Sequence record: OM632671.1
DNA: 64,000 bases
Origin: Escherichia phage BEU50
Direction: 5' to 3' (one strand)
This document shows positions 1 to 17,150 of the stretch, piece after piece. The first letter of the stretch is position 1. Each line of letters opens with the position of its first letter. The notes below the pieces were generated by a model, which saw only the letters and a program-made list of their open reading frames with translations, searched no databases and was not told the origin of the DNA. The translations under genes and the position numbers were made by a program.

Positions 1-54
1 CCCTTTTTGCTTTAGATTTTGGATGATAGAATACCTTCATAACGAGGAGACAAC

Positions 55-1875
55 ATGATTAAAAATGAAATTAAGGTATTGTCAGATGTAGAACATATTA
101 AGAAACGTAGTGGTATGTATATTGGTTCTTCTGCTAAAGAAGCACATGAGCGTTTTTTGTTTGGTAAATATCAACAAGTTGAATATGTTCCTGGTCTGGT
201 TAAATTAATCGATGAGATTATTGACAACTCGGTTGATGAAGCTATTCGTACATCATTTAAGTTTGCAAATAAAATTGATGTGCAAATTAAAAATAATCAA
301 GTTTCGGTGGAAGATAACGGACGTGGTATTCCTCAAGGTTTAGTTACCGACCAAACGGGTGAACAAATTCCTGGGCCTGTAGCAGCCTGGACTATTCCAA
401 AGGCTGGTGGTAACTTTGGTGATGACTCTGAACGCAAGACTGGTGGTATGAACGGTGTAGGGAGTAGTTTAACTAATATCTTCTCTACGTTGTTTACAGG
501 CATCACGTCAGATGGCGAAAATGAAATCACTGTTAACTGTTCAAACGGAATGGAAAACAAATCATGGTCTTCTAAGAAATCTAAAGGTAAAGGCACTAAA
601 GTAATCTTCACTCCTGATTTCTCTTCATTTGAAGAGCATAATTTATCTCAAATTTATTTAGATATTACTTTAGACAGACTTCAAACATTGGCAGTCGTTT
701 ATCCTGATATCAAGTTCACATTTAATGGTAAAAAGGTTGATGGTAATTTTAAACGATTTGCTAAACAATTTGGTGAAGATAACATCATTCAAGAAAATGA
801 TAAAGTCTCTATAGCATTCACAACATCACCAGATGGCTTCCGTCATTTAACTTATGTGAATAACATCCATACTAAAAATGGTGGCCATCATGTTGAATGT
901 GTAATGGATGATATCTGTGAACATCTTTTGCCGGGTATTAAAAAGAAATATAAGGGTATTGAAGTCACTAAAGCTCGTGTTAAAGAATGCCTCACAATGT
1001 TGATGTTTATTAGAGACATGAGCAACATGCGTTTTGATTCTCAGACTAAAGAACGTTTAACGTCAACGTATGGTGATATTCGTAATCATATCCAATTAGA
1101 TGCTAAGAAAATTGCTCAGGCACTTCTTAAAAACGAAGCCTTGATTATGCCTATTGTTGAAGCAGCATTAGCTCGTAAATTGGCAGCAGAAAAGGCTGCA
1201 GAAACTAAAGCAGCTAAAAAGGCGACTAAAGCTAAGGTTCATAAGCATATTAAAGCTAACCAATGTGGTAAAGATGCAGATACGACATTGTTTTTAACAG
1301 AAGGTGATTCGGCAATTGGTTATCTCATTGATGTTCGTGACCGTGAACTACACGGCGGATTCCCATTACGTGGTAAGGTGATGAATAGCTGGGGTATGTC
1401 ATATGCTGATATGATGAAGAACAAAGAGCTCTTTGATATCTGTGCTATCACAGGTCTTATTCTTGGTGAAAAGGCAGAGAATACGAACTATCGTAATATT
1501 GCAATTATGACCGATGCCGATCATGACGGTCTTGGAAGTATCTATCCAGCTTTGCTTGCTTTCTTTAGTAATTGGCCTGAATTGTTTGAACAAGGACGTA
1601 TTCGCTTTGTTAAAACGCCTGTAATTATTGCACAAATTGGCAAAACTCAAAAATGGTTTTATACTGTAGCTGAGTATGAAGAAGCTAAAGATACACTGCC
1701 TAAGCATAGTATTCGATACATCAAGGGATTGGGCTCACTTCAGCGAGATGAATATAAAGAAATGATTCAAAACCCTGTGTACGACGTAGTTAAACTTCCT
1801 GAAAATTGGAAAGAACTATTTGAAATGCTCATGGGTAACGACCCTGAACTCCGTAAAGATTGGATGCTAGGATAA
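55..1875 (+). CDS. 39: DNA topoisomerase II large subunit, unsplit 39/60 form
   Basis: 606 aa ORF with RBS GAGGAG; GyrB-like ATPase N-terminus, Toprim motifs EGDSA and DADHDG. Confidence 0.9.
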   Translation: MIKNEIKVLSDVEHIKKRSGMYIGSSAKEAHERFLFGKYQQVEYVPGLVKLIDEIIDNSVDEAIRTSFKFANKIDVQIKNNQVSVEDNGRGIPQGLVTDQTGEQIPGPVAAWTIPKAGGNFGDDSERKTGGMNGVGSSLTNIFSTLFTGITSDGENEITVNCSNGMENKSWSSKKSKGKGTKVIFTPDFSSFEEHNLSQIYLDITLDRLQTLAVVYPDIKFTFNGKKVDGNFKRFAKQFGEDNIIQENDKVSIAFTTSPDGFRHLTYVNNIHTKNGGHHVECVMDDICEHLLPGIKKKYKGIEVTKARVKECLTMLMFIRDMSNMRFDSQTKERLTSTYGDIRNHIQLDAKKIAQALLKNEALIMPIVEAALARKLAAEKAAETKAAKKATKAKVHKHIKANQCGKDADTTLFLTEGDSAIGYLIDVRDRELHGGFPLRGKVMNSWGMSYADMMKNKELFDICAITGLILGEKAENTNYRNIAIMTDADHDGLGSIYPALLAFFSNWPELFEQGRIRFVKTPVIIAQIGKTQKWFYTVAEYEEAKDTLPKHSIRYIKGLGSLQRDEYKEMIQNPVYDVVKLPENWKELFEMLMGNDPELRKDWMLG

Positions 1876-2672
1876 TGAATTATCGTAAAATTTATGATAA
1901 ACTTATCGCTGCGGCTAAAAACCGCAGCATTATTCCTAATTATACTGAGACACATCATATATTGCCAAAATCTATGGGTGGGAGTAATGATAAATCAAAT
2001 CTAGTTAAAATGACCCCTAGAGAGCATTTTATCGCCCATTTATTGCTTTATAAAATTCATAAGAACCGTTCTATGCTTATGGCTATTAGAGCTTTTTACA
2101 TGGGAGCTAGAAATTCTAGAGATTATGATTGGCTTAAACAAGAATTCTCTAAAGAGCACTCTAGATTTATGAAAGAATGGATTGCTAAAAACGGCAACCC
2201 ATTTAAAGGTAAAAAACATACTAAAGCAACAAGAGAATTAATGTCACATATTGCTTCACAACGTATAGGCGAATTAAATCCATTTTATGGTAAAACTCAT
2301 ACGCAAGAAGCAATAGATAAAATAATACAGGCCAACAAGTTATCTTGGGAGAATGGGCGAAAAGCACCTGTAAAAACAAAAGAACACCAGGATAAAATAA
2401 CTAAATCAAGAATGGAAACATTTAAAACAAAAGGATTTAAACCATACACTCCTAGGTCGGAAGAAACTAAAGCTAAGACTAGAGAGTTGTATAAATCTAA
2501 ATATGAAAGAAGGCCTATAAGAATCACAAGTGTAAAAACAGGTGAAACTATTGATTTTAACTATCTTTATGAATTAAGAGAGTATTTAGATATAGGGTCT
2601 TCTAATATATTGAAAGCATTAAATAATCCTAACAGAACCTGCAAAGGTTATAAAATGTGTTGGATGTCCTAA
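1875..2672 (+). CDS. HNH homing endonuclease (I-TevIII/MobA-like)
   Basis: ATG overlaps gene 39 stop (TAATG); N-terminus MNYRKI shared with intron ORF at 28074; HHILPKSMGG HNH motif. Confidence 0.75.
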   Translation: MNYRKIYDKLIAAAKNRSIIPNYTETHHILPKSMGGSNDKSNLVKMTPREHFIAHLLLYKIHKNRSMLMAIRAFYMGARNSRDYDWLKQEFSKEHSRFMKEWIAKNGNPFKGKKHTKATRELMSHIASQRIGELNPFYGKTHTQEAIDKIIQANKLSWENGRKAPVKTKEHQDKITKSRMETFKTKGFKPYTPRSEETKAKTRELYKSKYERRPIRITSVKTGETIDFNYLYELREYLDIGSSNILKALNNPNRTCKGYKMCWMS

Positions 2673-2696
2673 GCTCCTTCGGGAGCTTCATTTTAA
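2672..2696 (+). terminator. rho-independent terminator hairpin AGCTCC-TTCG-GGAGCT plus T-run
   Basis: perfect 6 bp stem, UUCG loop, followed by TCATTTT. Confidence 0.6.
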
Positions 2697-2714
2697 TTTT
2701 AATAAGGCTTAATT

Positions 2715-3815
2715 ATGAAAGTTATGTTTATCCCATCTCGTGCAGTCCCATTTAATCCTGACCGTGTACAAGGTGGTCTTGAAGCGGTTCATTTGAACGT
2801 GTTGAAATATTTAGTTTCTATCGGTGCCGATATTGATTATATCGGCTTTGATAATGACACGTTTGGTGACTGGAAAGTTACACACCATCCTGTTGGTCAT
2901 CTGACTAAATTCAGTCTAGGTATGAGTTATACTATGGCTCGTAAGATTGTTGAACTAGCCGGCATCCATGAATACGATTTTGTTGTTACTATGGAACCGA
3001 CTAAACTAACCGTTCAGGCAATTAAAGACGCAGGTCTCTCTAAAGTTCATAAGAATTTTATGGCAACACCATTTGAACCAGTATCTCGTGGCATTGTTCA
3101 AATTTGGGACCAGACTATTCAAATTCATAAGAATGGCGGTAAGAGTTATGCTCCTACTAAAGCCTTCCGTGAATTTGAACGCAAATATTGTTATATGACT
3201 TCAGGTCTGACTGACAAAATCGATTATGATTATTGGCGAGCAAATCCGTTGTTTGAAGCCGAAGATTATCCGGTTATTTGTTTGACTGAAAAGCCAGAAG
3301 TTCTCCCGGCAACTGATTTGATTATTAGTGCTCAACGTTATGACACTAAGATGCGTCGCACTGATGTTGCTCTTGAAGCAATTAAAGCACTAGGCGAAAA
3401 TGGTGTAGGATACTGTCCTAGTAAATGGGCACCACCAGCTAAATATCCTGTTATTATTGATGCTCCACACAGTGAAATCATGGAACGTCTTAAAACAGCT
3501 AAAGCACTTATTAATACGTGTCCTGACACAGGTACGGTAGAGAATAGTTCTATTGAAGCCATCTCTAAAGGTGTCCCTGTAATCCAGTTAGTTTTTAAGG
3601 ATTATCCTCATGCGACATTTGAATACGACCCAGATACTGTGCGTGTAGAAATTGATTCCTCTACTCCTAAGAAAGAAGTAGTTGCGCTTTACACAAAAGC
3701 TGTATTAGAATTCACTGACACATACGAAGCTCGAGTTAAACGTGCTGAAGCAGTATGGAAGAAGTATAATCGAGATGCAGTTGTTGCGATGTGGGATAAA
3801 ATCTTCACAGCGTAA
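2715..3815 (+). CDS. hypothetical protein, possible GT-B type glycosyltransferase
   Basis: 366 aa ORF; C-terminal E-x7-EA-x3-G-x-PVI pattern (ENSSIEAISKGVPVI); not at a position of any T4 gene I recognise. Confidence 0.5.
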   Translation: MKVMFIPSRAVPFNPDRVQGGLEAVHLNVLKYLVSIGADIDYIGFDNDTFGDWKVTHHPVGHLTKFSLGMSYTMARKIVELAGIHEYDFVVTMEPTKLTVQAIKDAGLSKVHKNFMATPFEPVSRGIVQIWDQTIQIHKNGGKSYAPTKAFREFERKYCYMTSGLTDKIDYDYWRANPLFEAEDYPVICLTEKPEVLPATDLIISAQRYDTKMRRTDVALEAIKALGENGVGYCPSKWAPPAKYPVIIDAPHSEIMERLKTAKALINTCPDTGTVENSSIEAISKGVPVIQLVFKDYPHATFEYDPDTVRVEIDSSTPKKEVVALYTKAVLEFTDTYEARVKRAEAVWKKYNRDAVVAMWDKIFTA

Positions 3816-3831
3816 ATCCTGAATAGCCTGA

Positions 3832-3882
3832 GGCACTATTACACATAAGATGATAGATTATATGGTCTTTAGTAATAGTGCC
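3832..3882 (+). other. long stem-loop (11 bp perfect stem, about 29 nt loop)
   Basis: GGCACTATTAC ... GTAATAGTGCC inverted repeat in the intergenic gap; no T-run. Confidence 0.4.
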
Positions 3883-3907
3883 CTAGGAATCTACTGAAGA
3901 GAATATT

Positions 3908-4108
3908 ATGAGAACATATAACGTGGACTTGGAACTTTTTGATAAAGCAGTGCTCCGGGAATTCCGGCTTATCCAAAGATTTTTTGATATCGAATCAGCA
4001 GAGTCCTTTAAAGAACGCTTTAAAGAAATTCGATATAAAATACAAACCGATACAGCTACTAAAGAAGAACTTCTTGAAGTAGCAGAAATTTTTAAACGTA
4101 ACTTGTGA
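3908..4108 (+). CDS. small hypothetical protein (rIIA.1 position)
   Basis: 66 aa ORF with ATG and upstream purine-rich RBS. Confidence 0.5.
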   Translation: MRTYNVDLELFDKAVLREFRLIQRFFDIESAESFKERFKEIRYKIQTDTATKEELLEVAEIFKRNL

Positions 4109-4120
4109 TGAGAGAAAAAC

Positions 4121-6178
4121 ATGATTATCGAAACGGCTAAAGAAACGATTATTGGTTCTGGTGGTAAGAGCACAGCATTCACTATTCAAGGCAATAGCAA
4201 AGTTTATAAGATTTTGTCTAATGACCTTTATACAAACAAAGAATTGGCTTGTGTACGTGAATTAATCACAAACTGTATCGATGGACAAATTCTTAATGGT
4301 TGCACTGATAAGTTTATTGTTCAGGCTCCAGGTCGTTTAGACCCACGTTTTGTAGTTCGAGACTTTGGTCCTGGTATGAGTGATTTCACCATTCGAGGTA
4401 ATGACGAAGAGCCAGGAATCTATAACTCATATTTTGCTTCAACTAAAACATCGAGTAATGATTTCATTGGTGGATTCGGACTCGGCTCTAAAGCTCCATT
4501 AGCATATACTGATACGTTTAACATTACTTCTTATCATAATGGTGAAGTTCGTGGTTATGTAATTTATCAAGATGACAGTGGTCCACAAATTAAGCCAACC
4601 TTTGTAGATAAGATGGGCCCTGATGACCGTACGGGTGTAGAAGTAGTTGTGCCTGTTAACCCGGAAGATTTTGAAAAGTTCGCATCTGAAATTGCGTATG
4701 TTATGCGTCCTCTCGGCGATATTGCAGAAGTTCGTGGTGTTAAAGATATCAAATACTTCCCGGAATTCGATGATGTTTATTTAGCCAAGGAAGCTCCATG
4801 GGGTGAACGTGGTAATATCATGGCTGTTTATGGTGGTATTGTATATCCAATCGGAAGTGTTATTAAAGAACAAACATGGATGATGACGCGATGCACTACA
4901 GCTTATATCAAATTCCCTATGGGTGAACTAGATGTAGCCCCGTCTCGTGAAGCATTGTCATTTGATAAACGTACAGTAGCAAATATTCATAAACGTGTTG
5001 CAGAAATTGATGCAAAATTATTTGCTGAAGATTCTAAGAAATGGATTGATTGTGAATATCCACGTCATGTATTCCGTGAAATCGATTCTCTTGGTTACTC
5101 TGCTCGTAAATACATGGAAAAAGCCGGTTCTAATATTGAATCACTGAAATATTCTAAAGAACAACTAACTTATTCTGAGTTGTACAAACGTTTTAAAATG
5201 GGACCTGAATGGTGCAACCTTGGCGTTGTATATGATATCGTTTCAGATCCACGACTTCGTCGTATTCGTGAAAGCGGAAGCTCGTCTGCAACTATTTCAA
5301 TTAATAGCCTGCTAGGTATTAGTCGTAAGCATATTGATATTGTTATTGACGATGTGAAAGGCCGCGTACCAATGATGCGTGCTCTGAACGATGCTTTGAC
5401 TTCCACCGATGCATCAACACTCGTTGATAAGGTTCCTTCCGGACGGGGTAGTAGCGTATTATTCATTAACCCGGAAGATGAAGTTGCAATGAAACTTCTG
5501 GAACGATTAAAGGTTATTTTCGCTGGTGATAGCCTTAAATTTTATAAGACCTCTGAAATTCTTGCATTAGTTAAACCATGGATTGAAGTTAAAGAACGTT
5601 CATCGCAGCCTCGTCCTAAATCCCCAAGTGCTCATCGGTTCTTTAAGAATGAAAACGATGTTTGGGTATCAGAAGATCTCTTTATTCCGGCCGGTAAAGC
5701 TGATGAGATTCAAGGTTATGTTGTAATTCGTAATCGTTCTAACGCTGAATGTCTTGACGCAGATAAAGGTTGGTTGAACTATGATTCTAATTTCTTGACT
5801 CGTATTGCTGATTTGTCAGGTATTAAAGAGTTCACTGTAGTCCGTCCACAGATTGCTAAGAAAGTTCGTAAACTTGGTGAAGTAGAATGCTTGTTCGAAA
5901 AATCAATTAATGACTATATTACGCTAATTGATAAAGTGGATTATGATGAGTATGTATCACCAAGTCGTAGAGCACAGCCTTATTTGAATCATATTACTCG
6001 TAACGAAGAGCTTAACTTCCTTAGTAAGTATTTTAGCTCTAAGAACAAAGAAATCAGTAAAGACTTTGCAAAACTCTCAACAGTAAATAATCGCTGGGGA
6101 TGGAATCGATTCGCAGGTGCTGATAACAGAGACCTGAACAGGAAGTTAGAATTGTGCTTAAAGAGGACTCTTTTGTAG
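4121..6178 (+). CDS. rIIA: rIIA membrane-associated protein, 3-prime end ends at a junction
   Basis: 685 aa; GHKL-like boxes ([19 protein letters not shown]); about 40 aa shorter than T4 rIIA as I recall it. Confidence 0.85.
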
Positions 6179-6429
6179 ACCCAGAAATTTTCTACGGTTT
6201 GCGTGCCCGTGAAATTGAAATTGAGCCACAACCTACAGTTAAAATTGAAGGTGGTCAACACCTGAACGTTAACGTTCTGCGTCGTGAAACTCTGGAAGAT
6301 GCAGTTAAGCATCCGGAAAAATATCCGCAATTGACTATCCGTGTATCCGGTTATGCAGTTCGCTTTAACTCTCTGACTCCGGAACAGCAGCGCGACGTTA
6401 TCGCTCGTACCTTTACCGAGAGTTTGTAA
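6154..6429 (+). CDS. GrcA/YfiD-like autonomous glycyl radical cofactor, 5-prime end probably truncated
   Basis: C-terminal RVSGYAVRF glycyl-radical motif, near-identical to E. coli GrcA C-terminal half; only a GTG start available. Confidence 0.75.
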
Positions 6430-6650
6430 TGGCAAAGATAATTATTGAAGGTTCTGAAGATGTGCTAAATGCTTTCGCCGAGTGGTTTAGTAATTCAGGT
6501 GAACAACAATTTAATGAAGCGTGGAATATGGGTGATATTGATGGAATTTATCCTACGACAGAAATTTCTGTTCAGGGATATGGCATTCATGAACCTATTC
6601 GTTTAGTTGAATACGATTTATGTACTGGCGAGGAAGTCAAATATGATTGA
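6429..6650 (+). CDS. hypothetical small protein (vs.5 position)
   Basis: 73 aa ORF, ATG overlaps upstream stop. Confidence 0.5.
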   Translation: MAKIIIEGSEDVLNAFAEWFSNSGEQQFNEAWNMGDIDGIYPTTEISVQGYGIHEPIRLVEYDLCTGEEVKYD

Positions 6651-6909
6651 AGATATTAAGGGTTATAAACCACATACCGACGAAAAAATCGGTAAAGTAA
6701 ATGCTATTAAAGACGCTGAAGTTCGTTTAGGACTTATCTTTGATGCTTTATACGATGAATTTTGGGAAGCATTTGATAGCTGTGAAGATGATGAACTCGC
6801 GAAGAATTACGCCGAAAGCCTCGATCAGTTAACTATTGCTAAAACGAAACTCAAAGAAGCAAGTATGTGGGCTTGCCGTGCTGTGTTCCAACCAGAGGAA
6901 AAATACTAA
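6643..6909 (+). CDS. hypothetical small protein, candidate Vs.4/Acb2-like
   Basis: 88 aa from ATG 6643 with RBS GAGGAAG; assigned by synteny (second ORF before regB) only. Confidence 0.4.
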
Positions 6910-7187
6910 TGGCTCAATTAAGCGCAGGGTTTGGTTATGAGTATTATACTGCCCCTCGTCGTGTATCTGTTGCTCCTAAGAAAATTCAAAGTCTTGATGA
7001 TTTCCAGGAAGTAGTCCGTAACGCTTTCCAGGACTATGCACGCTATCTTAAAGAAGATTCACAGGACTGTCTCGAAGAAGATGAAATTGCTTACTATACG
7101 CAGCGTCTTGAACAGCTCAAAAATCTACATGAGGTTCGTGCCGAAGTTTCAAAGTCTATGAATAAATTGATTAGATTTAAAGAATAA
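6909..7187 (+). CDS. hypothetical small protein (vs.3 position)
   Basis: 92 aa from ATG 6909 with RBS AGAGGAA. Confidence 0.5.
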
Positions 7188-7189
7188 CT

Positions 7190-7219
7190 GTTTACTTTTC
7201 CTCTTGACTGTGGTATAAT
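7190..7219 (+). promoter_or_regulatory. T4-type early promoter
   Basis: GTTTAC, 18 nt spacer, TATAAT; upstream of regB. Confidence 0.65.
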
Positions 7220-7246
7220 TTTTCTATCAGTTAAGAGGAGAATAAC

Positions 7247-7708
7247 ATGACTATCAACACAGAAGTTTTTATCCGTCGAAATAAGCTTCGTCGTCACTTT
7301 GAGTCGGAGTTTCGTCAAATTAACAATGAGATTCGTGAGGCATCAAAAGCAGCAGGGGTCTCATCGTTTCATCTAAAATATTCTCAGCATCTTCTTGATC
7401 GTGCAATTCAACGGGAGATTGATGAGACATATGTTTTTGAATTATTCCACAAAATAAAAGACCATGTTTTAGAAGTTAATGAATTCCTGAGTATGCCTCC
7501 GCGTCCTGACATTGATGAGGATTTTATTGATGGGGTTGAATACCGTCCTGGACGTTTAGAAATCACAGATGGAAATCTTTGGCTTGGATTTACAGTTTGT
7601 AAACCTAATGCGAAGTTCAAAGACCCGTCGCTTCAATGCAGGATGGCAATTATCAATAGTCGTCGTTTACCAGGAAAGGCTTCTAAAGCAGTAATTAAAA
7701 CTCAATGA
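7247..7708 (+). CDS. regB: RegB site-specific endoribonuclease
   Basis: 153 aa, RBS AAGAGGAG; sequence matches RegB as I recall it. Confidence 0.8.
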   Translation: MTINTEVFIRRNKLRRHFESEFRQINNEIREASKAAGVSSFHLKYSQHLLDRAIQREIDETYVFELFHKIKDHVLEVNEFLSMPPRPDIDEDFIDGVEYRPGRLEITDGNLWLGFTVCKPNAKFKDPSLQCRMAIINSRRLPGKASKAVIKTQ

Positions 7709-7715
7709 GGTAAGC

Positions 7716-8261
7716 ATGAGAAAAGCACTACTCGCTGGTCTATTGGCCATTTCAATGATGGCACATAGCTCCGAGCATACTTTCAGTAATGTCCAACTCG
7801 ATAACATGCGTTACGCGTATCAATTCGGGGAACAATTTTCTAAGGATGGAAAATATAAAACACACAAAAACATCCACAAGAGCGGATTGGGTCATATAAT
7901 GGCTGCTATTTTGTGGCAAGAAAGCTCTGCCGGAGTTAATTTAAAATCTAAACCAAAGCATCACGCCTACGGAATGTTCCAAAATTATTTGCCTACTATG
8001 CGAGCGAGAGTTAAGGAACTTGGTTATAATATGACCGATGCTGAAATAAAAAGAATGTTGAATAAACGATCCAATTCAGCTTCCTGGGCGTACATTGAAC
8101 TTTCTTATTGGTTAAATATACATAAGGGCGATATAAGAAAAGCAATATCCTCTTATAATTCGGGATGGAATGTTAAAGCAGGTTCTAAATATGCTTCTGA
8201 AGTCCTAGAAAAGGCTAATTACCTTAAAAATAATAAACTTTTGGAAATAGTAAATGACTAA
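7716..8261 (+). CDS. secreted lytic transglycosylase-like protein (SLT domain)
   Basis: signal peptide; ESSAG, YGMFQ and SYNSGW motifs resembling SLT catalytic motifs. Confidence 0.6.
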   Translation: MRKALLAGLLAISMMAHSSEHTFSNVQLDNMRYAYQFGEQFSKDGKYKTHKNIHKSGLGHIMAAILWQESSAGVNLKSKPKHHAYGMFQNYLPTMRARVKELGYNMTDAEIKRMLNKRSNSASWAYIELSYWLNIHKGDIRKAISSYNSGWNVKAGSKYASEVLEKANYLKNNKLLEIVND

Positions 8262-8595
8262 AATTTTGGTTTTATGTATAGGATTAATTTCATTTTCTGC
8301 GTTAGCAGATACATCATATACTGAAATTAGAGAGTATGTAAACCGTACTGCAGCGGATTATTGCGGGAAAAATAAAGCATGCCAAGCTGAATTTGCGCAG
8401 AAATTAATATATGCATATAAAGACGGAGAAAGAGATAAATCAAGCAGATACAAAAATGATACATTGTTAAAACGATATGCTAAAAAGTGGAATACCTTAG
8501 AATGTTCAGTTGCGGAGGAGAAAGATAAAGCCGCTTGTCATTCAATGGTTGACCGTTTAGTAGATTCTTATAATCGAGGATTGAGTACTAGATGA
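8254..8595 (+). CDS. small secreted protein (vs position)
   Basis: 113 aa with N-terminal signal peptide (…FSALA). Confidence 0.5.
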   Translation: MTKILVLCIGLISFSALADTSYTEIREYVNRTAADYCGKNKACQAEFAQKLIYAYKDGERDKSSRYKNDTLLKRYAKKWNTLECSVAEEKDKAACHSMVDRLVDSYNRGLSTR

Positions 8596-9071
8596 TTGTA
8601 AAATATATCAAGGGCGATATTGTCGCCCTATTTCTTCAAGGTAATATTATTGCGCACGGGTGCAATTGCTTCCACACAATGGGCTCTGGCGTAGCAGGTC
8701 AATTAGCAAGAGCCTATCCCAAAATTTTAGAAATAGATAAAACCACTACCGAGTACGGTTCTCGTGATAAATTAGGCGATATGTCTATTGTTTTTAAACA
8801 TAGTCCTACGGGATTTGGTATATGCTATAACCTGTATACACAATACGAACCGGGTCCTAATCTTGATTATGGTGCTTTAGTAAACTGCATGATAGAATTA
8901 AATCTACAGGCAGAAACCCTTTTGTTTAAACCAGTAATTTACATTCCACGCATAGGTTGCGGTATTGCTGGTGGTGATTGGGATAAGGTTTCTAAATTAA
9001 TCGACATGTTTACTCCTGATATTGATTTAATAGTGGTGGATTATGAAAGTACATTACCCGCATCCGTTTGA
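8592..9071 (+). CDS. macro domain protein (ADP-ribose binding/hydrolase family)
   Basis: 159 aa; IAHGCNCFHTMGSGVAGQ motif typical of macro domains. Confidence 0.7.
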   Translation: MIVKYIKGDIVALFLQGNIIAHGCNCFHTMGSGVAGQLARAYPKILEIDKTTTEYGSRDKLGDMSIVFKHSPTGFGICYNLYTQYEPGPNLDYGALVNCMIELNLQAETLLFKPVIYIPRIGCGIAGGDWDKVSKLIDMFTPDIDLIVVDYESTLPASV

Positions 9072-9255
9072 TCCTAAAAACAAAGTGGAAATTATTCGTC
9101 AATGGGAACGCATTTGCCGTACTAAATGCCCAATTAATAGTCCACATGATGTAGATAAAGACTATATTGGAACATTCGTTGAATATACCTTTATTGATAG
9201 GAAAGGTCGTAAACAACATGTAGAAGAATATTGTTTAAAGGTTACATGGTTATGA
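9043..9255 (+). CDS. hypothetical small protein
   Basis: 70 aa ORF, ATG start, overlaps macro gene end. Confidence 0.35.
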   Translation: MKVHYPHPFDPKNKVEIIRQWERICRTKCPINSPHDVDKDYIGTFVEYTFIDRKGRKQHVEEYCLKVTWL

Positions 9256-9458
9256 GCCAAACTAGTATTCTTAAAAATGCCCATTGTGAAAAGTGTAAGT
9301 GGCCGATTGTTTTTGCTTTATGTAATGATGAAATGGCTTGTGATTTCGATTATTGGTGCTATTGTTCTAATAAAGGATGCATCAATCATAAAGGTGAAGG
9401 ATTTTATTCAGGATTTTATCCTTATCCTGATTTCGTTAAAGAAGGTAAACCGAAATGA
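9246..9458 (+). CDS. hypothetical Cys-rich small protein
   Basis: 70 aa from ATG 9246; CEKC…C…C…C pattern. Confidence 0.4.
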   Translation: MVMSQTSILKNAHCEKCKWPIVFALCNDEMACDFDYWCYCSNKGCINHKGEGFYSGFYPYPDFVKEGKPK

Positions 9459-9628
9459 ATAGTTTTGAGTTACAATATGAAGTGTTACGTGAGCTTGATA
9501 ATTTAATTGAACTCGCTGTCAATAAAGGTTTTGCCATTGGAATCGGTCAAAAAGATACTGGTCATTTAACTATGGAAATATTTAAGCAAAAGCGAATTAT
9601 TTTAAAACTCCTGGAAATTAATATATGA
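9455..9628 (+). CDS. hypothetical small protein
   Basis: 57 aa, ATGA overlap with upstream stop. Confidence 0.3.
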   Translation: MNSFELQYEVLRELDNLIELAVNKGFAIGIGQKDTGHLTMEIFKQKRIILKLLEINI

Positions 9629-9819
9629 GTCTGAGTAAAGAATAAAAAGATAAATTGTTTGAGCTTATCCATGAACTTCTAGATGAGCATGCAGAAGCAA
9701 ACACCTTTTATGATGAATACGGCCCGCTATCTCCCGAACAGCAAGAAGAATTTGCTGATCGGTTTGATAAGAAAGAAAACGAATTAATAGCTTATGTGAA
9801 TATGCTTTAAGAAGGTGAT

Positions 9820-10401
9820 ATGGCGAGTTTAATTTTTACTTACGCAGCAATGAATGCTGGAAAATCTGCTTCTCTTTTGACTGCTGCACATAATTATAAA
9901 GAACGCGGAATGAGTGTATTAGTTCTTAAGCCTGCTATTGATACTCGCGATTCTGTCTGTGAAGTCGTTTCTCGCATTGGAATTAAGCAGGAAGCGAATA
10001 TTATTACAGATGATATGGATATTTTCGAGTTCTATAAATGGGCTGAAGCACAAAAAGATATTCATTGCGTATTTGTAGATGAAGCTCAGTTTTTAAAAAC
10101 TGAACAGGTGCATCAATTAAGTCGAATTGTTGATACATATAATGTTCCTGTTATGGCTTATGGATTAAGGACTGATTTCGCTGGAAAATTGTTTGAAGGT
10201 TCTAAAGAACTTTTAGCGATTGCAGATAAACTTATTGAACTAAAGGCAGTTTGTCATTGCGGCAAAAAAGCGATTATGACAGCTCGATTAATGGAAGATG
10301 GAACACCAGTTAAAGAAGGTAATCAAATCTGTATTGGTGATGAAATTTATGTTTCTTTGTGTAGAAAACATTGGAACGAATTAACTAAAAAGCTCGGTTA
10401 G
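9820..10401 (+). CDS. tk: thymidine kinase
   Basis: 193 aa; P-loop AAMNAGKS; C-terminal Cys cluster. Confidence 0.9.
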   Translation: MASLIFTYAAMNAGKSASLLTAAHNYKERGMSVLVLKPAIDTRDSVCEVVSRIGIKQEANIITDDMDIFEFYKWAEAQKDIHCVFVDEAQFLKTEQVHQLSRIVDTYNVPVMAYGLRTDFAGKLFEGSKELLAIADKLIELKAVCHCGKKAIMTARLMEDGTPVKEGNQICIGDEIYVSLCRKHWNELTKKLG

Positions 10402-10443
10402 TGCAAAAGTTATAAATAGGTTTATCTAACTAAAGGGGTATAT

Positions 10444-10656
10444 ATGCTACAATTAACTGAAAAGCAACTTCGCAATCTTACTGTTCTTCAATTAGATGAA
10501 ATTCGTAGGGAAGTTGGAAATATCATTTCAGCTTTGCGTCGAGAAGTATCACTCAACCAATCTCCGGCAGACTATACTAGATTGCGAAATTTTGAAAAAT
10601 ACCTTGATAAAGTTAAGGCCGTGCATCGGCATAAAGTAAATACAGGACAAAAATGA
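10444..10656 (+). CDS. hypothetical small protein
   Basis: 70 aa ORF in tk-nrdC region. Confidence 0.45.
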
Positions 10657-10668
10657 TAGGAGGCCTTT

Positions 10669-10962
10669 ATGGCCTTAAAAGCAACGGCACTATTTGCCAT
10701 GCTAGGATTAGCGTTTGCTTTATCTCCATCGATTGAAGCGAATGTCGATCCTCATTTTGATAAATTTATGGAATCTGGTATTAGACACGTTTATATGCTT
10801 TTTGAAAATAAAAGCGTAGAATCATCTGAACAGTTCTATAGTTTTATGCGAACGACTTATAAAAATGACCCGTGCTCTTCTGATTTTGAATGTATAGAGC
10901 GAGGCGCGGAGATGGCACAATCATACGCTAGAATTATGAACATTAAATTGGAGACTGAATGA
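10669..10962 (+). CDS. hypothetical secreted small protein
   Basis: 97 aa, RBS AGGAGG, N-terminal signal peptide. Confidence 0.5.
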   Translation: MALKATALFAMLGLAFALSPSIEANVDPHFDKFMESGIRHVYMLFENKSVESSEQFYSFMRTTYKNDPCSSDFECIERGAEMAQSYARIMNIKLETE

Positions 10963-11345
10963 AATTCAGCGACTTTTCACAAAGTGGAAAACCTTCAAAG
11001 GCAGATGAATACTTAGGTTTATTAATGGCTGCACAAGCTTATTTTCATTCTGCGCATTTTGAAACTAAAAGTTATGCTAGACACAAAGCATACGATTTTA
11101 TTTTCTCCGAGTTGCCAGATTTGATTGATAAATTTGGTGAGCAATATTTGGGGTATTCTGGTAGAAAATACACACCTTCAATTCCAGATGCTAGTAAACT
11201 TCCTACCGACACAATTAAAATGATTGATCGCATACTAGACCAATCTAACAGCATTTATAAAGAAATGCCTCCAGCCATTCAAAGCACGATAGATGATATC
11301 ACTGGGATGTTTTATCAGAGTAAATATCTTCTTTCCCTCGAATAA
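10959..11345 (+). CDS. hypothetical protein
   Basis: 128 aa ORF, overlapping start with upstream stop. Confidence 0.5.
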
Positions 11346-11350
11346 CGTTA

Positions 11351-11372
11351 GTCTCCTTCGGGAGACTTTTTT
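11351..11372 (+). terminator. rho-independent terminator GTCTCC-TTCG-GGAGAC plus T6
   Basis: perfect hairpin followed by TTTTTT. Confidence 0.7.
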
Positions 11373-11382
11373 CATTTTACCG

Positions 11383-11412
11383 GTTTACTTTCCATTTGAG
11401 CTGTGATACTAT
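11383..11412 (+). promoter_or_regulatory. T4-type early promoter
   Basis: GTTTAC, about 18 nt, TACTAT. Confidence 0.55.
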
Positions 11413-11440
11413 ACAACCATCGGATAAAGAGGAGAACATC

Positions 11441-11629
11441 ATGAAAATTGAAGCACTTAATCAAGAAGGAAATATCTACGTCATCATTAATGGTGATTTT
11501 TTCGTCGACATGGATGAAGTTACCAGTGAAGAACTTGTAGAACTTCTTAAGAAACGTTATAATATGTGTGATGAAGTTGCAACTCACATGGCGTGTGCAA
11601 TATTCTCTCTTTCATATGTGGTGGAATAA
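11441..11629 (+). CDS. hypothetical small protein
   Basis: 62 aa from ATG 11441 with RBS AAGAGGAG. Confidence 0.45.
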
Positions 11630-11645
11630 TGAAAACTGAAAAGCA
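11620..11645 (+). repeat. 26 nt direct repeat copy 1 (GGTGGAATAATGAAAACTGAAAAGCA)
   Basis: identical 26-mer spanning stop/RBS/start; second copy at 12010. Confidence 0.8.
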
Positions 11646-11832
11646 AGCGGATAAAATTAAGGAATTAGTGGCTTCAATTCGTAAAGCAGATGAAGAGCTG
11701 ATTGACTTTGCTTGGTATTCATCGGGTATTTCGAATAAAGGCATTAAAGACTTTGAAACTAAAGTTGATAATGCTTTAGAAGCGTTAGATATGTTTCTTG
11801 ATGAAATTATCGATCATAATACGAGAGTTTAA
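11629..11832 (+). CDS. hypothetical small protein (MKTEKQ start)
   Basis: 67 aa from ATG inside the 26 nt repeat. Confidence 0.45.
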   Translation: MKTEKQADKIKELVASIRKADEELIDFAWYSSGISNKGIKDFETKVDNALEALDMFLDEIIDHNTRV

Positions 11833-11834
11833 GT

Positions 11835-12029
11835 ATGCTAACACGTGAACAGTTTGAAAAAATCATTAAATTAGCACGTGATGTTGAAATAGATTCATAT
11901 CAATTAGCAGTTGAGCATTGTGAAGGATATTCATACGATGGTATAGAATCAGCTAAAAGGGATTTGGATAAATCTAAAGCTAAGTTAGTCCAATATCTTG
12001 AAATGATTAGGTGGAATAATGAAAACTGA
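11835..12029 (+). CDS. hypothetical small protein
   Basis: 64 aa ORF. Confidence 0.45.
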   Translation: MLTREQFEKIIKLARDVEIDSYQLAVEHCEGYSYDGIESAKRDLDKSKAKLVQYLEMIRWNNEN

Positions 12030-12035
12030 AAAGCA
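12010..12035 (+). repeat. 26 nt direct repeat copy 2
   Basis: identical to 11620-11645. Confidence 0.8.
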
Positions 12036-12192
12036 GATGTTTTTAATGAAACTAATTGAAGAATATGCTAATGCAGTTTCTGACTATGAGCGTTCTTCTC
12101 GGGAAAGAGGTACAGCTTTCGCCAAAGAAGAAATGAAAATCATGGTTGATGCTCACACAAAGCTTCAGAATTTTATTGAAAACAACATTTAA
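12019..12192 (+). CDS. hypothetical small protein (MKTEKQ start)
   Basis: 57 aa from ATG inside repeat copy 2. Confidence 0.35.
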   Translation: MKTEKQMFLMKLIEEYANAVSDYERSSRERGTAFAKEEMKIMVDAHTKLQNFIENNI

Positions 12193-12194
12193 CG

Positions 12195-12224
12195 GTTTAC
12201 AAGTTGGCAAGGTTATGGTATAGT
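12195..12224 (+). promoter_or_regulatory. T4-type early promoter
   Basis: GTTTAC, 18 nt, TATAGT. Confidence 0.55.
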
Positions 12225-12359
12225 AATCTTGTCAACTGTCAAGGAGAAGAGAATGAAAGTTTTGTTTGTTGTGTATGTAATGATTCAATATAATTACCCA
12301 ATGTTTACTTATAATCTGGTGAACAACATTATTGATATTATTCAAAGGAGTATGTAATT

Positions 12360-12590
12360 GTGAGTGAGTCGAAGAGAATCAATATGAAACGATTAGTATT
12401 AGAAGTTAGTCCGCTTTTTGGTGAATTGGCTATAGAAAAAGTAAATAACATGTATCGTTTGACGCAAGAAGACGATATGCTATATTTTACGCCTAGTGAA
12501 ATCATTCATTTAACCCAAATTGAATATCCTTATACTGATAAAATAGTAAGTATCAATGATGAGCACAAAATTCATTGCTCGTTTGATTGA
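12360..12590 (+). CDS. hypothetical small protein
   Basis: 76 aa; GTG start 8 nt after AAGGAG (alternative ATG at 12384). Confidence 0.4.
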   Translation: MSESKRINMKRLVLEVSPLFGELAIEKVNNMYRLTQEDDMLYFTPSEIIHLTQIEYPYTDKIVSINDEHKIHCSFD

Positions 12591-12680
12591 AGTTGAAGCC
12601 CAAATTGCAGAACACACCAAATTGTTAAAAGCTCTTAATGCAAAAGCAAATGGTTTACGTAATGCTATTGAGGTATTGAA

Positions 12681-12995
12681 ATGAAAAAGCGTCTATTAGA
12701 AGACATTGCAGCTTCAAGTAATTCCAGTTTAATTAAAATTATTATGGCCGGTGAAGAAGACGATCTGGAAATGCGTGGAAAGATTTATGGTTGTGATGAT
12801 TATAGCAGCCCTATTAATTGGGATTCTGTAATGGTCATGGTTGAACGTCGCGAAAGGGCTTCTAAAAACGTTCCTAATTGCCCTGAATGTGGAACTGAAC
12901 AGGTGCAATTAGTCCATTGGCAGACTAATAATCTTCGTTATAAATGTCGCCATTGTAAACACCGATTTGACCGAGAAGAAAATGACAAAGCGTAA
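12681..12995 (+). CDS. hypothetical zinc-ribbon protein
   Basis: 104 aa; CPECG…CRHCKH. Confidence 0.5.
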
Positions 12996-13224: not shown

Positions 13225-13225
13225 T

Positions 13226-13701: not shown

Positions 13702-13703
13702 AT

Positions 13704-13874: not shown

Positions 13875-13996
13875 ACCCTGGTGGGCGGCTAGATGGGAAA
13901 CTGTAGAGCCAGAGCCGGAAGAACCGGTTTACACTGATGAAGAAACAGTATATAATGAACCAACGATAAATGACTTAATTGATATGGAGATGGGAC

Positions 13997-14735: not shown

Positions 14736-15209
14736 ATGTTATTGACTGGCAAATTATACAAAGAAGAAAAACAAAAATTTTATAATGTACAAAACGGTAA
14801 ATGCTTAATTTGCCAACGAGAACTAAATCCTGATGTTCAAGCTAATCACCTTGACCATGACCATGAATTAAATGGACCAAAAGCAGGAAAGGTACGTGGA
14901 TTGCTTTGTAATCTCTGCAATGCTGCAGAAGGTCAAATGAAGCACAAATTTAATCGTTCTGGCTTAAAGGGTCAAGGTGTTGATTATCTTGAATGGTTAG
15001 AAAATTTACTTACTTATTTAAAATCCGATTACACCCAAAATAATATTCACCCTAACTTTGTTGGAGATAAATCAAAGGAATTTTCTCGTTTAGGAAAAGA
15101 GGAAATGATGGCCGAGATGCTTCAAAGTGGATTTGAATATAATGAATCTGACACCAAAACACAATTAATAGCTTCATTTAAGAAGCAGCTTAGAAAGAGT
15201 TTAAAATGA
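14736..15209 (+). CDS. 49: endonuclease VII (Holliday junction resolvase)
   Basis: 157 aa; CLICQ…CNLC zinc site plus HLDHDHE. Confidence 0.85.
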   Translation: MLLTGKLYKEEKQKFYNVQNGKCLICQRELNPDVQANHLDHDHELNGPKAGKVRGLLCNLCNAAEGQMKHKFNRSGLKGQGVDYLEWLENLLTYLKSDYTQNNIHPNFVGDKSKEFSRLGKEEMMAEMLQSGFEYNESDTKTQLIASFKKQLRKSLK

Positions 15210-16027
15210 ATGTAGTATATAAACTATCATTTATTAATAGAATTAATGCTAAAACCCCACCATATTATTACATTGGAAGTAAAACCAATTGCACTTTTGA
15301 TGGAACGAATATTATTGATAAAAATGGTAAATTTTATTATTCGTCTTCGTCATCTTCTGAATTTCAAAAAGCCTTATTGAAAGAAACGCCGAAAGTTGAA
15401 ATATTATATTTTCAATTAGTCGGAGATGAACAAATAACTAGCATTGAAGCTGAATTTCAAAAGAATATAGAAAAAGATGTATGGAATAAAGAGTATTTTA
15501 ATTTAGCATATGCTGATGGCAAATTTACGACATATGGTATTTCTCCTTCTAAAGAAACTAGAGAAAAGCAATCAATAACCATGATTAAAAGAAATCGTAA
15601 TAAAGGCAAAAATCATGGATTTTATGGAAAGCATCATACTAATTTAGCTAGAAAGAAAATATCAGAAGCTTCTAAAAAATACTGGAAAGAAAATCCACAT
15701 CGTGGATTTTCGCATACAAAGGAAGCTAAAATTAAAATTGGAATTTCATCTTCTATCAGGCATAAAGGAAGTGGAAATCCGATGTATGGTGTAAAACCTT
15801 GGAAAACTCCGAGCGCAATTAAATCTGGTACTTGTATATTATGGTTAAAATACGCAGAAATTTTATATGATTATTTAAGTCCAGATTTTAAAAGTAAATC
15901 ATCTATTTTTGCGGATTTAAACTTACCGAAATTTAGAATTGATAATTTCATCAAAAGGTTTAAAATGGGTTGGAACCCATATTTAGACGAAGAATTTCAA
16001 AAGGATAAATTAGAATTATGTCTTTAG
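15206..16027 (+). CDS. GIY-YIG/NUMOD-type homing endonuclease-like protein (seg-like)
   Basis: 273 aa; VVYKLS…YYYIGSK and repeated GxxHT/NPMYG NUMOD-like motifs; inserted between 49 and nrdD. Confidence 0.6.
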   Translation: MNVVYKLSFINRINAKTPPYYYIGSKTNCTFDGTNIIDKNGKFYYSSSSSSEFQKALLKETPKVEILYFQLVGDEQITSIEAEFQKNIEKDVWNKEYFNLAYADGKFTTYGISPSKETREKQSITMIKRNRNKGKNHGFYGKHHTNLARKKISEASKKYWKENPHRGFSHTKEAKIKIGISSSIRHKGSGNPMYGVKPWKTPSAIKSGTCILWLKYAEILYDYLSPDFKSKSSIFADLNLPKFRIDNFIKRFKMGWNPYLDEEFQKDKLELCL

Positions 16028-17016
16028 AAAAAGATGTTTTAAATTTTATTTCAAATAAAGATAAAGAATTAAATACAGAAAACGCCAACAAAGATTCTCG
16101 CGTCTTTCCAACAAAAAGAGATTTAATGGCCGGTATTGTTTCTAAACATATCGCTTGTCGTATTCTTCCAAGTCATATTGTAAATGCCCATAATGTTGGA
16201 TTAATTCATTTTCATGATTTAGATTACAGTATATCATTGCCTTTTACTAATTGCTGTTTAGTAGATTTAAAAGGAATGCTTGAGAACGGGTTTAAGCTCG
16301 GTAATGCACAGATTGAAACTCCTAAATCAATCGGTGTTGCTACTGCAATTATGGCACAAATTACTGCACAGGTTGCTTCTCACCAATATGGCGGAACTAC
16401 ATTTGCTAATGTCGATAAAGTACTTTCTCCTTATGTTAAACGCACCTATGCAAAACATATCGAAGACGCAGAAAAATGGCAAATCGCCGATGCGTTAAAT
16501 TATGCTCAATCTAAAACAGAAAAAGACGTATACGATGCATTCCAAGCTTATGAATATGAAGTAAATACTCTCTTTAGTTCAAACGGACAGACTCCTTTTG
16601 TAACAATTACATTTGGTACAGGAACTGACTGGACTGAACGAATGATTCAGAAAGCAATTCTGAAAAATCGTATTAAAGGTCTTGGTCGTGATGGGATAAC
16701 TCCTATTTTCCCTAAGCTTGTTATGTTTGTTGAAGAAGGTGTTAATCTTTATAAAGACGATCCGAACTATGATATTAAGCAGCTTGCTCTAGAGTGTGCA
16801 AGCAAAAGAATGTATCCTGATATTATTTCAGCTAAGAACAATAAAGCTATCACTGGTTCATCTGTTCCTGTTTCTCCAATGGGTTGCCGTAGTTTCTTGG
16901 GCGTATGGAAAGATTCGACTGGTAATGAAATTCTTGATGGACGTAATAATCTTGGCGTTGTAACACTGAATCTTCCTCGCATCGCGTTAGATTCTTATAT
17001 TGGAACACAGTTCAAT
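16018..17016 (+). pseudogene. nrdD: anaerobic ribonucleotide reductase NrdD, 3-prime truncated (N-terminal ~333 codons only)
   Basis: NrdD-like sequence to …[17 protein letters not shown]; remainder of the ORF to 17103 is reverse complement of gene 37 start; no glycyl-radical C-terminus. Confidence 0.8.
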
Positions 17017-17150
17017 CCTGAGTCATCTTTTGTGAAAATTGTTTTATCTTTTAAGTTTATAGCCAATTCACCTTCGGCTAATACTGAAGCAGCAGGACGT
17101 TGACCTGCAGTTTTGCTTCTTTTAAATTGTATTTGTTTTAAAGTAGCCAT
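16995..17150 (-). pseudogene. 37: long tail fibre distal subunit gene 37, 51-codon N-terminal stub
   Basis: [13 protein letters not shown]…TKDDSG then LNCVPI-stop; gp37-like only to codon 45. Confidence 0.75.

What the first reader, a model, noticed from the sequence alone, without database searches (positions are those of the whole stretch)
2715..3815. Unrecognised 366 aa ORF with glycosyltransferase-like motif between gene 39 and rIIA
T4 has only small ORFs and the gene 60 segment at this position as far as I recall. Here a large ORF with a GT-B-like C-terminal pattern (E…EAISKGVPVI) follows a homing endonuclease. It could be a DNA-modifying sugar transferase or another nucleotide-sugar enzyme that travelled with the mobile endonuclease.
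Basis: inference. Interest (0 to 1): 0.55.

Follow-up and report, generated by a model that had tools for sequence, protein, structure and literature searches.

The report
Known Mosigvirus DNA arabinosyltransferase (RB69 gp3)
The 366-aa ORF is a real gene, the near-identical copy of phage RB69 ORF003c/gp3, a sugar-transferase already proposed to add the second arabinose to the modified cytosines of RB69-type phage DNA and already crystallised, so the finding is correct in spirit but not new.

Summary

The literature names this gene as the Mosigvirus arabinosyltransferase lying between rIIA and the topoisomerase gene. It was proposed in 2018 and is now assigned to adding the second arabinose to arabinosyl-5-hydroxycytosine in DNA. 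Distribution supports this. The family has one copy in di-arabinosylating Mosigviruses and two in tri-arabinosylating Acinetobacter phages. It is absent from phages that carry only the first transferase.

"Unrecognised" and "travelled with the homing endonuclease" are not: the HNH gene is an optional 794-bp insert in a minority of these phages.

Verdict: already known, low interest. Separately, the window is a chimera, with about 10.9 kb of Tequatrovirus-type DNA spliced in at 6157-17016.

The parts
2715..3815 (+). Orthologue of RB69 ORF003c/gp3: a GT-B (GT4-like) glycosyltransferase and putative second DNA arabinosyltransferase
3540..3584 (+). C-terminal-domain motif T272-G-T-V-E276-N-S-S-I-E281-A-I-S-K-G286 (then V-P288-V289-I just beyond these coordinates).
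   Evidence: G273, T274, E276, S279, E281, A282, I283, G286, P288 and V289 are invariant across 11 family members at 35-44% identity. E281, A282 and G286 stay invariant when the distant GT4-like P0015 is added.
3333..3356 (+). Q207-R208-x-D210-x3-R214: conserved basic motif at the start of the C-terminal Rossmann domain, inferred to contact the UDP diphosphate
   Evidence: Q207, R208, D210 and R214 are invariant in A3. R208 and R214 are invariant in A4. The role is inferred by analogy with the GT4 R/K pair and was not tested.
2772..2780 (+). G20-G21-L22: N-terminal glycine loop after strand beta1, typical of GT4-type GT-B enzymes
   Evidence: Invariant in A3. Lies between E2-6 and H21-35 of the model.
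2671..2714 (+). Intergenic region upstream of the ORF: stem-loop AAGCTCCTTCGGGAGCTT with a T-rich tail (terminator-like or RNA-stabilising), then Shine-Dalgarno AAGG 7 nt before the ATG
   Evidence: The region is shared with RB69 and SF, which lack the HNH gene (the alignment resumes at window 2661).
1875..2672 (+). MobA-like HNH/NUMOD3 homing endonuclease. It is an optional insertion (window 1867-2660 relative to RB69/SF), a neighbour of the glycosyltransferase and not part of it.
   Evidence: Pfam NUMOD3 5e-9 and HNH, and phrog_655. Present at >=95% identity in about 27 records only. Absent in RB69, SF and 5 of 6 natural contexts. Insert boundaries.

Best explanation
The ORF encodes the Mosigvirus chain-extending DNA arabinosyltransferase. 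It is the orthologue of RB69 ORF003c/gp3 and is essentially the same protein as the crystallised 'phage HY126 glycosyltransferase'.

It is a two-domain GT-B enzyme of GT4-like architecture. The C-terminal Rossmann domain binds a UDP-sugar, most likely UDP-arabinofuranose made by the phage's own arabinose-5-P isomerase, kinase/uridylyltransferase and phosphatase genes, which lie outside this window. The cleft between the domains takes as acceptor an arabinosyl-5-hydroxycytosine residue already present in replicated phage DNA.

It transfers a second arabinose, converting 5-ara-dC to 5-ara-ara-dC. This bulkier sugar coat shields phage DNA from restriction enzymes, CRISPR and other DNA-targeting defences.

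Shown here: the gene is real and under selection; its identity to RB69 gp3 and the HY126 GT; the GT-B fold; conservation of the nucleotide-binding motifs; its fixed locus; and a distribution that tracks arabinose chain length.

Taken from the literature: the chemistry of RB69 DNA (mono- plus di-arabinosyl-5hoC); UDP bound in the crystal; in-vitro third-arabinose addition by the two Acinetobacter homologues using UDP-Araf on RB69 DNA.

Inferred: that this particular protein adds the second arabinose, and the linkage it makes.
For: - Identity: 362/366 to RB69p003. About 99% to PDB 9IQZ/9IR0, 'phage HY126 glycosyltransferase (with UDP)'.
- Motifs invariant at 35-44% identity: GGL, QRxDx3R, TGTVEN..EAISxGxPV.
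- Context: the Acinetobacter homologues sit as a tandem pair inside the cluster of ThyA homologue, kinase, arabinose-5-P isomerase and NDP-sugar pyrophosphorylase.
- Distribution: the family is found only in Mosigvirus (one place per record) and Acinetobacter T4-likes (two places per record). The proposed first transferase, gp46:47, is in 348 records across many genera, including mono-pentosylated Shewanella Thanatos. RB69, NP and Bas46/47 DNA is di-arabinosylated and DLP3 DNA tri-arabinosylated (PMC13326640, PMC13390438, PMC12923530).
- Biochemistry of homologues: DLP3 gp76 + gp77 with UDP-Araf add a third arabinose to RB69 DNA in vitro (PMC13326640, read).
Against: - No direct assay of RB69 gp3 or this protein appears in the papers I could read. 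In PMC13326640 its role is a proposal. He et al. (Nat Chem Biol 2026) and Mahler et al. (Cell Host Microbe 2025), which may contain the direct test, are not held.
- The individual DLP3 enzymes were inactive alone, so a partner requirement or a non-catalytic role for one paralogue is possible.
- At sequence level the protein fails Pfam GT models. The first Glu of the GT4 EX7E motif is not at the canonical -8 position: G273 is there, and an invariant E276 sits at -5.
- The nearest structural relatives are retaining enzymes, whereas the published label is 'beta', so the stereochemical mechanism is unresolved.
- The rest of the pathway is not in this window. The window itself is chimeric, so the genome background cannot be read from it.
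Confidence: 0.8

Rival explanations
1. It is the primary transferase that puts the first arabinose on the hydroxylated cytosine. [quoted passage not shown]
For: Thomas et al. 2018 (PMC6024577) identified ORF003c as the only GT-B-like candidate they could find in RB69. It has the GT-B fold and binds UDP.
Against: A second GT-B gene, gp46:47 (split by a sequencing error in the RB69 record), lies directly beside the 5hodCMP synthase. It is conserved in 348 phage records, including mono-pentosylated Thanatos (PMC13326640). The ORF003c family is missing from those phages. Its copy number (0, 1, 2) tracks the extra arabinoses (0, 1, 2).
Confidence: 0.08
2. It glycosylates something other than DNA, for example a host envelope lipid or LPS, a small molecule or a protein, as its closest structural relatives (PimA, BshA, WaaG, sucrose-phosphate synthase) do.
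Against: It co-occurs strictly with the arabinosylation pathway: about 155 versus about 153 Mosigvirus records and 55 versus 57 Acinetobacter records. The Acinetobacter homologues are embedded in the cluster and act on DNA in vitro (PMC13326640). It is an early-region gene among DNA-metabolism genes.
Confidence: 0.05
3. It is a largely non-catalytic partner, a UDP-binding scaffold or specificity subunit, that assists the first arabinosyltransferase. This is suggested by the mutual dependence of DLP3 gp76 and gp77.
For: In vitro, neither DLP3 homologue works alone; both are needed. The first Glu of the canonical EX7E motif is displaced.
Against: The nucleotide-binding and cleft residues are invariant across the family, and the crystal contains UDP. 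Mosigviruses carry only one copy, so no paralogue is available to supply catalysis for the second step. Strong purifying selection acts over the whole length.
Confidence: 0.05

Closest known systems
RB69 ORF003c / gp3 (RB69p003, NP_861693.1): putative arabinosyltransferase, 'beta-arabinosyltransferase 2'
   Same: 99% identical (362/366). Same length and same locus between gene 39 and rIIA.1/rIIA. Same PHROG.
   Different: Four substitutions (T56N, T191N, V230A, T327I). In this window an HNH homing endonuclease gene is inserted between gene 39 and the ORF; RB69 has only a 42-bp spacer there.
Phage HY126 glycosyltransferase, PDB 9IQZ (apo) and 9IR0 (UDP complex); He et al., Nat Chem Biol 2026 (paper not held)
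   Different: A handful of substitutions (e.g. Y159H, G163A, T191N, S315F). I could not read the paper, so the activity demonstrated for it is not known to me.
Acinetobacter phage DLP3 gp76/gp77 (and the Lazarus gp072/gp073 tandem pair): arabinosyltransferases 2/3
   Same: Same family (41-44% identity over the full length). The conserved motifs are identical. They act on arabinosylated 5hoC DNA with UDP-Araf (PMC13326640).
   Different: Two tandem copies embedded in the arabinose/5hoC gene cluster. Together they add a third arabinose. Mosigviruses have a single copy at a remote locus and stop at two arabinoses.
Bacterial GT4-type GT-B glycosyltransferases (PimA, BshA, MshA, WaaG, sucrose-phosphate synthase, BGluT)
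   Different: 10-15% identity. No significant Pfam Glycos_transf_1 or Glyco_trans_1_4 hit. The first Glu of EX7E is shifted. The acceptor is a modified base in duplex DNA, and the sugar is a pentofuranose.
T4 alpha-glucosyltransferase (GT72; 1Y6F/1XV5) and beta-glucosyltransferase (GT63)

Membership tests
RB69 ORF003c/gp3 family (phrog_8302; Mosigvirus/Acinetobacter-phage DNA arabinosyltransferase 2/3) | Full-length sequence match to family members | tested here: met
   phrog_8302 matched 1-366 of 366, E 4e-222. 99% identical to RB69p003. 41-44% to the Acinetobacter members.
RB69 ORF003c/gp3 family (phrog_8302; Mosigvirus/Acinetobacter-phage DNA arabinosyltransferase 2/3) | Mosigvirus synteny: gene lies between gene 39 (topoisomerase II large subunit) and rIIA.1/rIIA | tested here: met
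   Window order is 39 - HNH - ORF - rIIA.1 - rIIA. RB69, SF, a20 and six further contexts show the same order.
RB69 ORF003c/gp3 family (phrog_8302; Mosigvirus/Acinetobacter-phage DNA arabinosyltransferase 2/3) | Co-occurrence with the 5hodCMP synthase / first arabinosyltransferase / UDP-arabinose pathway in the same genome | tested here: inconclusive
   Met across the family by record counts and in RB69. For this sequence the pathway genes are not in the window and the window is chimeric, so its own genome cannot be checked.
RB69 ORF003c/gp3 family (phrog_8302; Mosigvirus/Acinetobacter-phage DNA arabinosyltransferase 2/3) | Catalysis: transfer of arabinofuranose from UDP-Araf to arabinosyl-5-hydroxycytosine in DNA | not testable with these tools
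   Only indirect evidence: UDP in crystal 9IR0 and DLP3 gp76 + gp77 activity in vitro (PMC13326640).
GT-B fold nucleotide-sugar glycosyltransferases | Two Rossmann-like beta/alpha/beta domains separated by a cleft, with C-terminal helices crossing back | tested here: met
GT-B fold nucleotide-sugar glycosyltransferases | Nucleotide-sugar donor bound by the C-terminal domain | not testable with these tools
   Supported by the title of PDB entry 9IR0, 'with UDP', and by the invariant R208/R214 and E281 motifs. Contacts were not inspected.
CAZy GT4 / Pfam Glycos_transf_1 (PF00534) and Glyco_trans_1_4 (PF13692) | Match to the Pfam models at the gathering threshold | tested here: not met
   No Pfam family at E <= 1 for the ORF. 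Divergent members give only sub-threshold GT4-conflict or Glyco_trans_1_4 hits. A profile search of the PDB finds only 9IQZ.
CAZy GT4 / Pfam Glycos_transf_1 (PF00534) and Glyco_trans_1_4 (PF13692) | EX7E motif (two Glu eight residues apart in the C-terminal domain) | tested here: inconclusive
   The second Glu (E281, in EAISKGVPV) is present and invariant. Position -8 is G273. An invariant E276 lies at -5 instead. The canonical-motif description comes from my own knowledge of GT4.
CAZy GT4 / Pfam Glycos_transf_1 (PF00534) and Glyco_trans_1_4 (PF13692) | Closest structural neighbours are GT4 members | tested here: met
   BshA, PimA/PimB, MshA, WaaG/WaaB, WlaC, tll1590/1591 and BGluT dominate both lists. 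The depositors named 9IQZ 'Glycosyltransferase subfamily 4-like N-terminal domain-containing protein'.
T4 alpha-glucosyltransferase (GT72) / beta-glucosyltransferase (GT63) | Detectable sequence homology to T4 a-gt or b-gt | tested here: not met
   hhalign of the family profile against T4 a-gt and b-gt gave probability 0.3% for each. Thomas 2018 reported only a remote HHpred-level relationship.
T4 alpha-glucosyltransferase (GT72) / beta-glucosyltransferase (GT63) | Shared fold with the DNA glucosyltransferases | tested here: met

The most novel reading that the evidence does not exclude
The enzyme may be mechanistically unusual. It has a GT4-like scaffold whose nearest relatives are all retaining alpha-transferases, but its first catalytic-motif Glu is displaced (TGTVE276N instead of EX7E) and it has an invariant N-domain acid (E94). 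It might form the beta-linked second arabinofuranose that Lee et al. label it with, which would make it an inverting pentofuranosyl transferase acting on a sugar attached to duplex DNA.

A more remote possibility is that the Mosigvirus-Tequatrovirus-Mosigvirus mosaic of the window is a real recombinant, placing this arabinosyltransferase in a hybrid genome.
Probability: 0.12. Interest if true: 0.45.

Novelty: already known. Interest (0 to 1): 0.12.

Why it matters
Arabinosylated 5-hydroxycytosine is a recently clarified phage DNA hypermodification that blunts restriction enzymes, some CRISPR systems and DNA glycosylases. It is relevant to choosing and engineering therapeutic T-even-like phages. 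This gene is the proposed determinant of whether the DNA carries one or two arabinoses.

For this scan the value is negative but useful. The flagged ORF is correctly read as a glycosyltransferase, but it is an already described, already crystallised gene of a well-sampled genus. Nothing new would be learned from it without wet-lab work on linkage chemistry. The real anomaly nearby, the chimeric structure of the window, looks like a sequence artefact rather than biology.

Tried and rejected
- Pfam on the ORF gave nothing at E <= 1. phmmer and a family-profile hmmsearch against PDB sequences found only 9IQZ/9IR0. The GT assignment therefore cannot be made by ordinary sequence searches. It needs a fold comparison, or deep profile-profile searches as in Thomas 2018.
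- The first AlphaFold run with 6 sequences was poor (pLDDT 60) and gave low TM scores. Adding the divergent representatives raised it to pLDDT 91.7.
- hhalign of the family profile against single T4 a-gt and b-gt sequences gave no signal. I reject 'orthologue of T4 glucosyltransferases'.
- An exhaustive search of 1.84 billion representatives found only 11 hits. The family is small and isolated, with no bridge to a named bacterial family apart from one weak hit (P0015, E 5e-4).
- Mahler 2025 and He 2026 could not be retrieved. Searches for 9IQZ/9IR0 and HY126 found only citing papers.
- 'The gene arrived with the HNH endonuclease' is rejected on distribution and insertion boundaries.
- Exact-match scans of viral contigs for the two chimera junctions found nothing.
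- tblastn of the RB69 arabinose-cluster proteins and of T4 a-gt, b-gt and gp42 against the window gave no hits except the ORF itself.

Full report
**1. Observation**

Its neighbours are as follows:
- Gene 39: a fused 606-aa topoisomerase II large subunit at 55..1875.
- An HNH/NUMOD3 homing endonuclease, mechanically called at 1860..2672. The annotated orthologues are 265 aa, which puts the start at the ATG at 1875.
- The ORF itself.
- rIIA.1 at 3908..4108 (PF24210, E 2e-30).
- rIIA from 4121.

The quoted motif is at residues about 276-290. An open frame of 366 codons has probability about 2e-12 at this base composition. Against ten orthologues the codon differences are overwhelmingly synonymous, for example 19-24 synonymous versus 0 non-synonymous. 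A stem-loop and an AAGG Shine-Dalgarno precede the ATG.

**2. What it is**

Ordinary sequence searches give little:
- Pfam gives nothing.
- PHROGs gives a full-length match to phrog_8302, annotated 'unknown function' (E 4e-222).

A tblastn search of 50,697 phage records finds the protein in 211 records:
- About 155 Escherichia/Shigella phages match at 95-100% identity. The records inspected are all Mosigvirus.
- 55 Acinetobacter T4-like phages match at about 42%, with two places per record. Some are annotated 'putative DNA alpha-glucosyltransferase'.

The ORF is 362/366 identical to RB69 ORF003c (RB69p003), which occupies the same position between gene 39 and rIIA.1.

A phmmer search of PDB sequences finds a single hit at about 99% identity: 9IQZ/9IR0, 'Glycosyltransferase subfamily 4-like N-terminal domain-containing protein'. 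Foldseek describes these entries as 'phage HY126 glycosyltransferase' and '... with UDP', released 2025-07-16.

**3. Independent fold test**

- A first AlphaFold model from six sequences was poor (pLDDT 60).
- An exhaustive HMM search of 1.84 billion representatives found only 11 relatives, so the family is small and isolated.
- Adding those relatives gave a confident model (pLDDT 91.7, pTM 0.88) with two alternating beta/alpha domains.
- Profile comparison with T4 a-gt and b-gt sequences shows nothing.

Across members at 35-44% identity, these motifs are invariant:
- the N-terminal G20-G21-L22 loop;
- E94;
- Q207-R208-x-D210-x3-R214;
- T272-G-T-V-E276-N-x-S-x-E281-A-I-x2-G286-x-P-V.

R208, R214, E281 and G286 survive the addition of a distant GT4-like protein. 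The first Glu is not at the canonical -8 position: G273 is there, and E276 sits at -5.

**4. Literature**

- Thomas et al. 2018 (PMC6024577) discovered arabinose in RB69 DNA. Using custom HMMs, HHpred and Phyre2, they proposed ORF003c (366 residues) as the GT-B arabinosyltransferase.
- Lee et al. 2026 (PMC13326640) revised the chemistry. RB69 DNA carries mono- and di-arabinosylated 5-hydroxycytosine with an ether link, not hmC. The 5hodCMP is made by a flavin-dependent ThyA homologue.
- The same paper lists RB69p003 as 'beta-arabinosyltransferase 2'. It proposes that gp46:47 adds the first arabinose and gp3 the second. It also shows that the two Acinetobacter homologues, DLP3 gp76 + gp77, together add a third arabinose to RB69 DNA from UDP-Araf in vitro. 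RB69 gp3 itself was not assayed.
- PMC12923530 cites Mahler et al. 2025 for double arabinosylation in Mosigvirus Bas46/Bas47.
- PMC13216743 mentions that deleting 'the arabinosyltransferase Aat' in Bas46 sensitised it to a defence system. I could not verify which gene that is.
- He et al. 2026, the HY126 paper and the source of the structures, and Mahler et al. 2025 are not held.

**5. Comparative support for the chain-extension role**

- The proposed first transferase family (RB69 gp47 used as query) is in 348 phage records, always next to the ThyA homologue. The records span Escherichia, Klebsiella, Serratia, Enterobacter, Proteus, Edwardsiella and Acinetobacter phages and the mono-pentosylated Shewanella phage Thanatos.
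- The ORF003c family is confined to Mosigvirus (one copy; di-arabinosyl DNA) and Acinetobacter phages (two tandem copies inside the arabinose cluster; tri-arabinosyl DNA).
- The counts within those two groups agree closely: about 155 versus 153, and 55 versus 57.
- The copy number of this family therefore tracks the number of arabinoses beyond the first. This argues against the 2018 idea that it is the primary transferase and against a non-DNA substrate.

**6. The homing endonuclease**

- Relative to RB69 and SF, the window carries a discrete insertion at 1867-2660 that holds the HNH gene. RB69 and SF have a 42-bp spacer there.
- The HNH protein at >=95% identity occurs in only about 27 records.
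- Only 1 of 6 natural contigs encoding the identical glycosyltransferase has it.
- It resembles T4 MobA, which also follows gene 39 (hit H86).
- The endonuclease is therefore a later, optional arrival next to a resident gene. The glycosyltransferase did not travel with it.

**7. Genome background and a caveat**

No other DNA-modification gene is in the window. In RB69 the arabinose cluster lies between uvsX and gene 43, beyond the window's left end.

The window itself is a mosaic:
- 1-6156 is Mosigvirus, 98.8% identical to phage a20.
- 6158-17016 is the regB-vs-tk-rI-nrdC-pin-49-nrdD region. Its best matches are Tequatrovirus genomes at 93-98% identity; phage Bas43 matches in five pieces with gaps.
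- From 17022 onward it is Mosigvirus again, running from the gene 37 5' end through genes 36, 35 and 34 on to gene 23.

Both junctions cut genes. rIIA is truncated to 685 aa instead of 737, and nrdD to 361 aa. The Mosigvirus segment that should lie between them is missing. It carries the rIIA 3' end, rIIB, denB, ndd, gene 52, motA, asiA, the holin, gp38 and most of gp37. Neither junction is found in public viral contigs. This most likely reflects a chimeric assembly or concatenation rather than a viable phage. It does not affect the identity of the ORF, but it means the ORF's own genome cannot be inspected here.

**8. Verdict**

The ORF is the known Mosigvirus GT-B glycosyltransferase. It is the orthologue of RB69 ORF003c/gp3 and the HY126 GT, and most likely the UDP-arabinofuranose-dependent enzyme that adds the second arabinose to arabinosyl-5-hydroxycytosine in phage DNA.

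The claims of novelty and of co-mobility with the endonuclease do not hold.

- Novelty: already known.
- Interest: low.
- Still open, and not addressable here: a direct assay of this protein, the linkage it forms, and how a GT4-like scaffold with a shifted EX7E motif recognises a sugar on duplex DNA.

Noticed in passing
window 6156|6157 and 17016-17022 (segment 6157-17016): The window is chimeric. About 10.9 kb of Tequatrovirus-type DNA (regB-vs-tk-rI-nrdC-pin-49-homing endonuclease-5' nrdD; 93-98% identical to Bas43 and relatives) sits between two Mosigvirus segments. It starts inside rIIA and ends inside nrdD, abutting the 5' end of gene 37. The Mosigvirus genes rIIB, denB, ndd, 52, motA, asiA, t, 38 and most of 37 are missing. 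Neither junction exists in public viral contigs. Most likely a misassembly or concatenation rather than a viable recombinant.
   Followed up: partly
window 4121..6178 and 6154..6429: The rIIA ORF is truncated to 685 aa (737 aa in RB69, SF and a20) by the junction. The 91-aa 'glycyl-radical' ORF (Pfam Gly_radical, 1.5e-18; GrcA/YfiD-like) that follows starts at a GTG spanning the junction. It is the 3' part of a 363-nt Tequatrovirus gene (bas43_0229), so its start here is an artefact of the join.
   Followed up: partly
window 1867-2660 (HNH CDS about 1875..2672): MobA-like HNH/NUMOD3 homing endonuclease inserted precisely between the stop of gene 39 and the conserved intergenic stem-loop. It is present in only about 27 of about 155 Mosigvirus records and is about 60% identical over its N-terminus to the T4 gene at the equivalent site after gene 39. 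A recurrent homing site downstream of gene 39 appears to be shared by two genera.
   Followed up: partly
L011 (Shigella phage JK45, MK962757.1) 11194..11604: JK45 carries a partial tandem duplicate of the 3' part of the glycosyltransferase gene (nt 707-1101, 99% identical) as a 136-aa ORF between the full gene and rIIA.1.
   Followed up: no
window 15206..16027 and 16018..17103: Within the Tequatrovirus-type segment, a 273-aa putative homing endonuclease lies between gene 49 and nrdD, as in Bas43. The nrdD reading frame is cut off after 361 aa by the second junction.
   Followed up: no
L013 (RB69 NC_004928) 598-1498 and 4095-5781: The RB69 reference record splits two arabinosylation genes (ORF046c/047c and ORF052c/053c). 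Lee et al. 2026 and Thomas et al. 2018 treat these splits as errors in the reference record. Related Mosigvirus records match the ORF047c part at >=95% identity next to the ThyA homologue; I did not check that the genes are intact there. Annotation transferred from RB69 will propagate the split.
   Followed up: no
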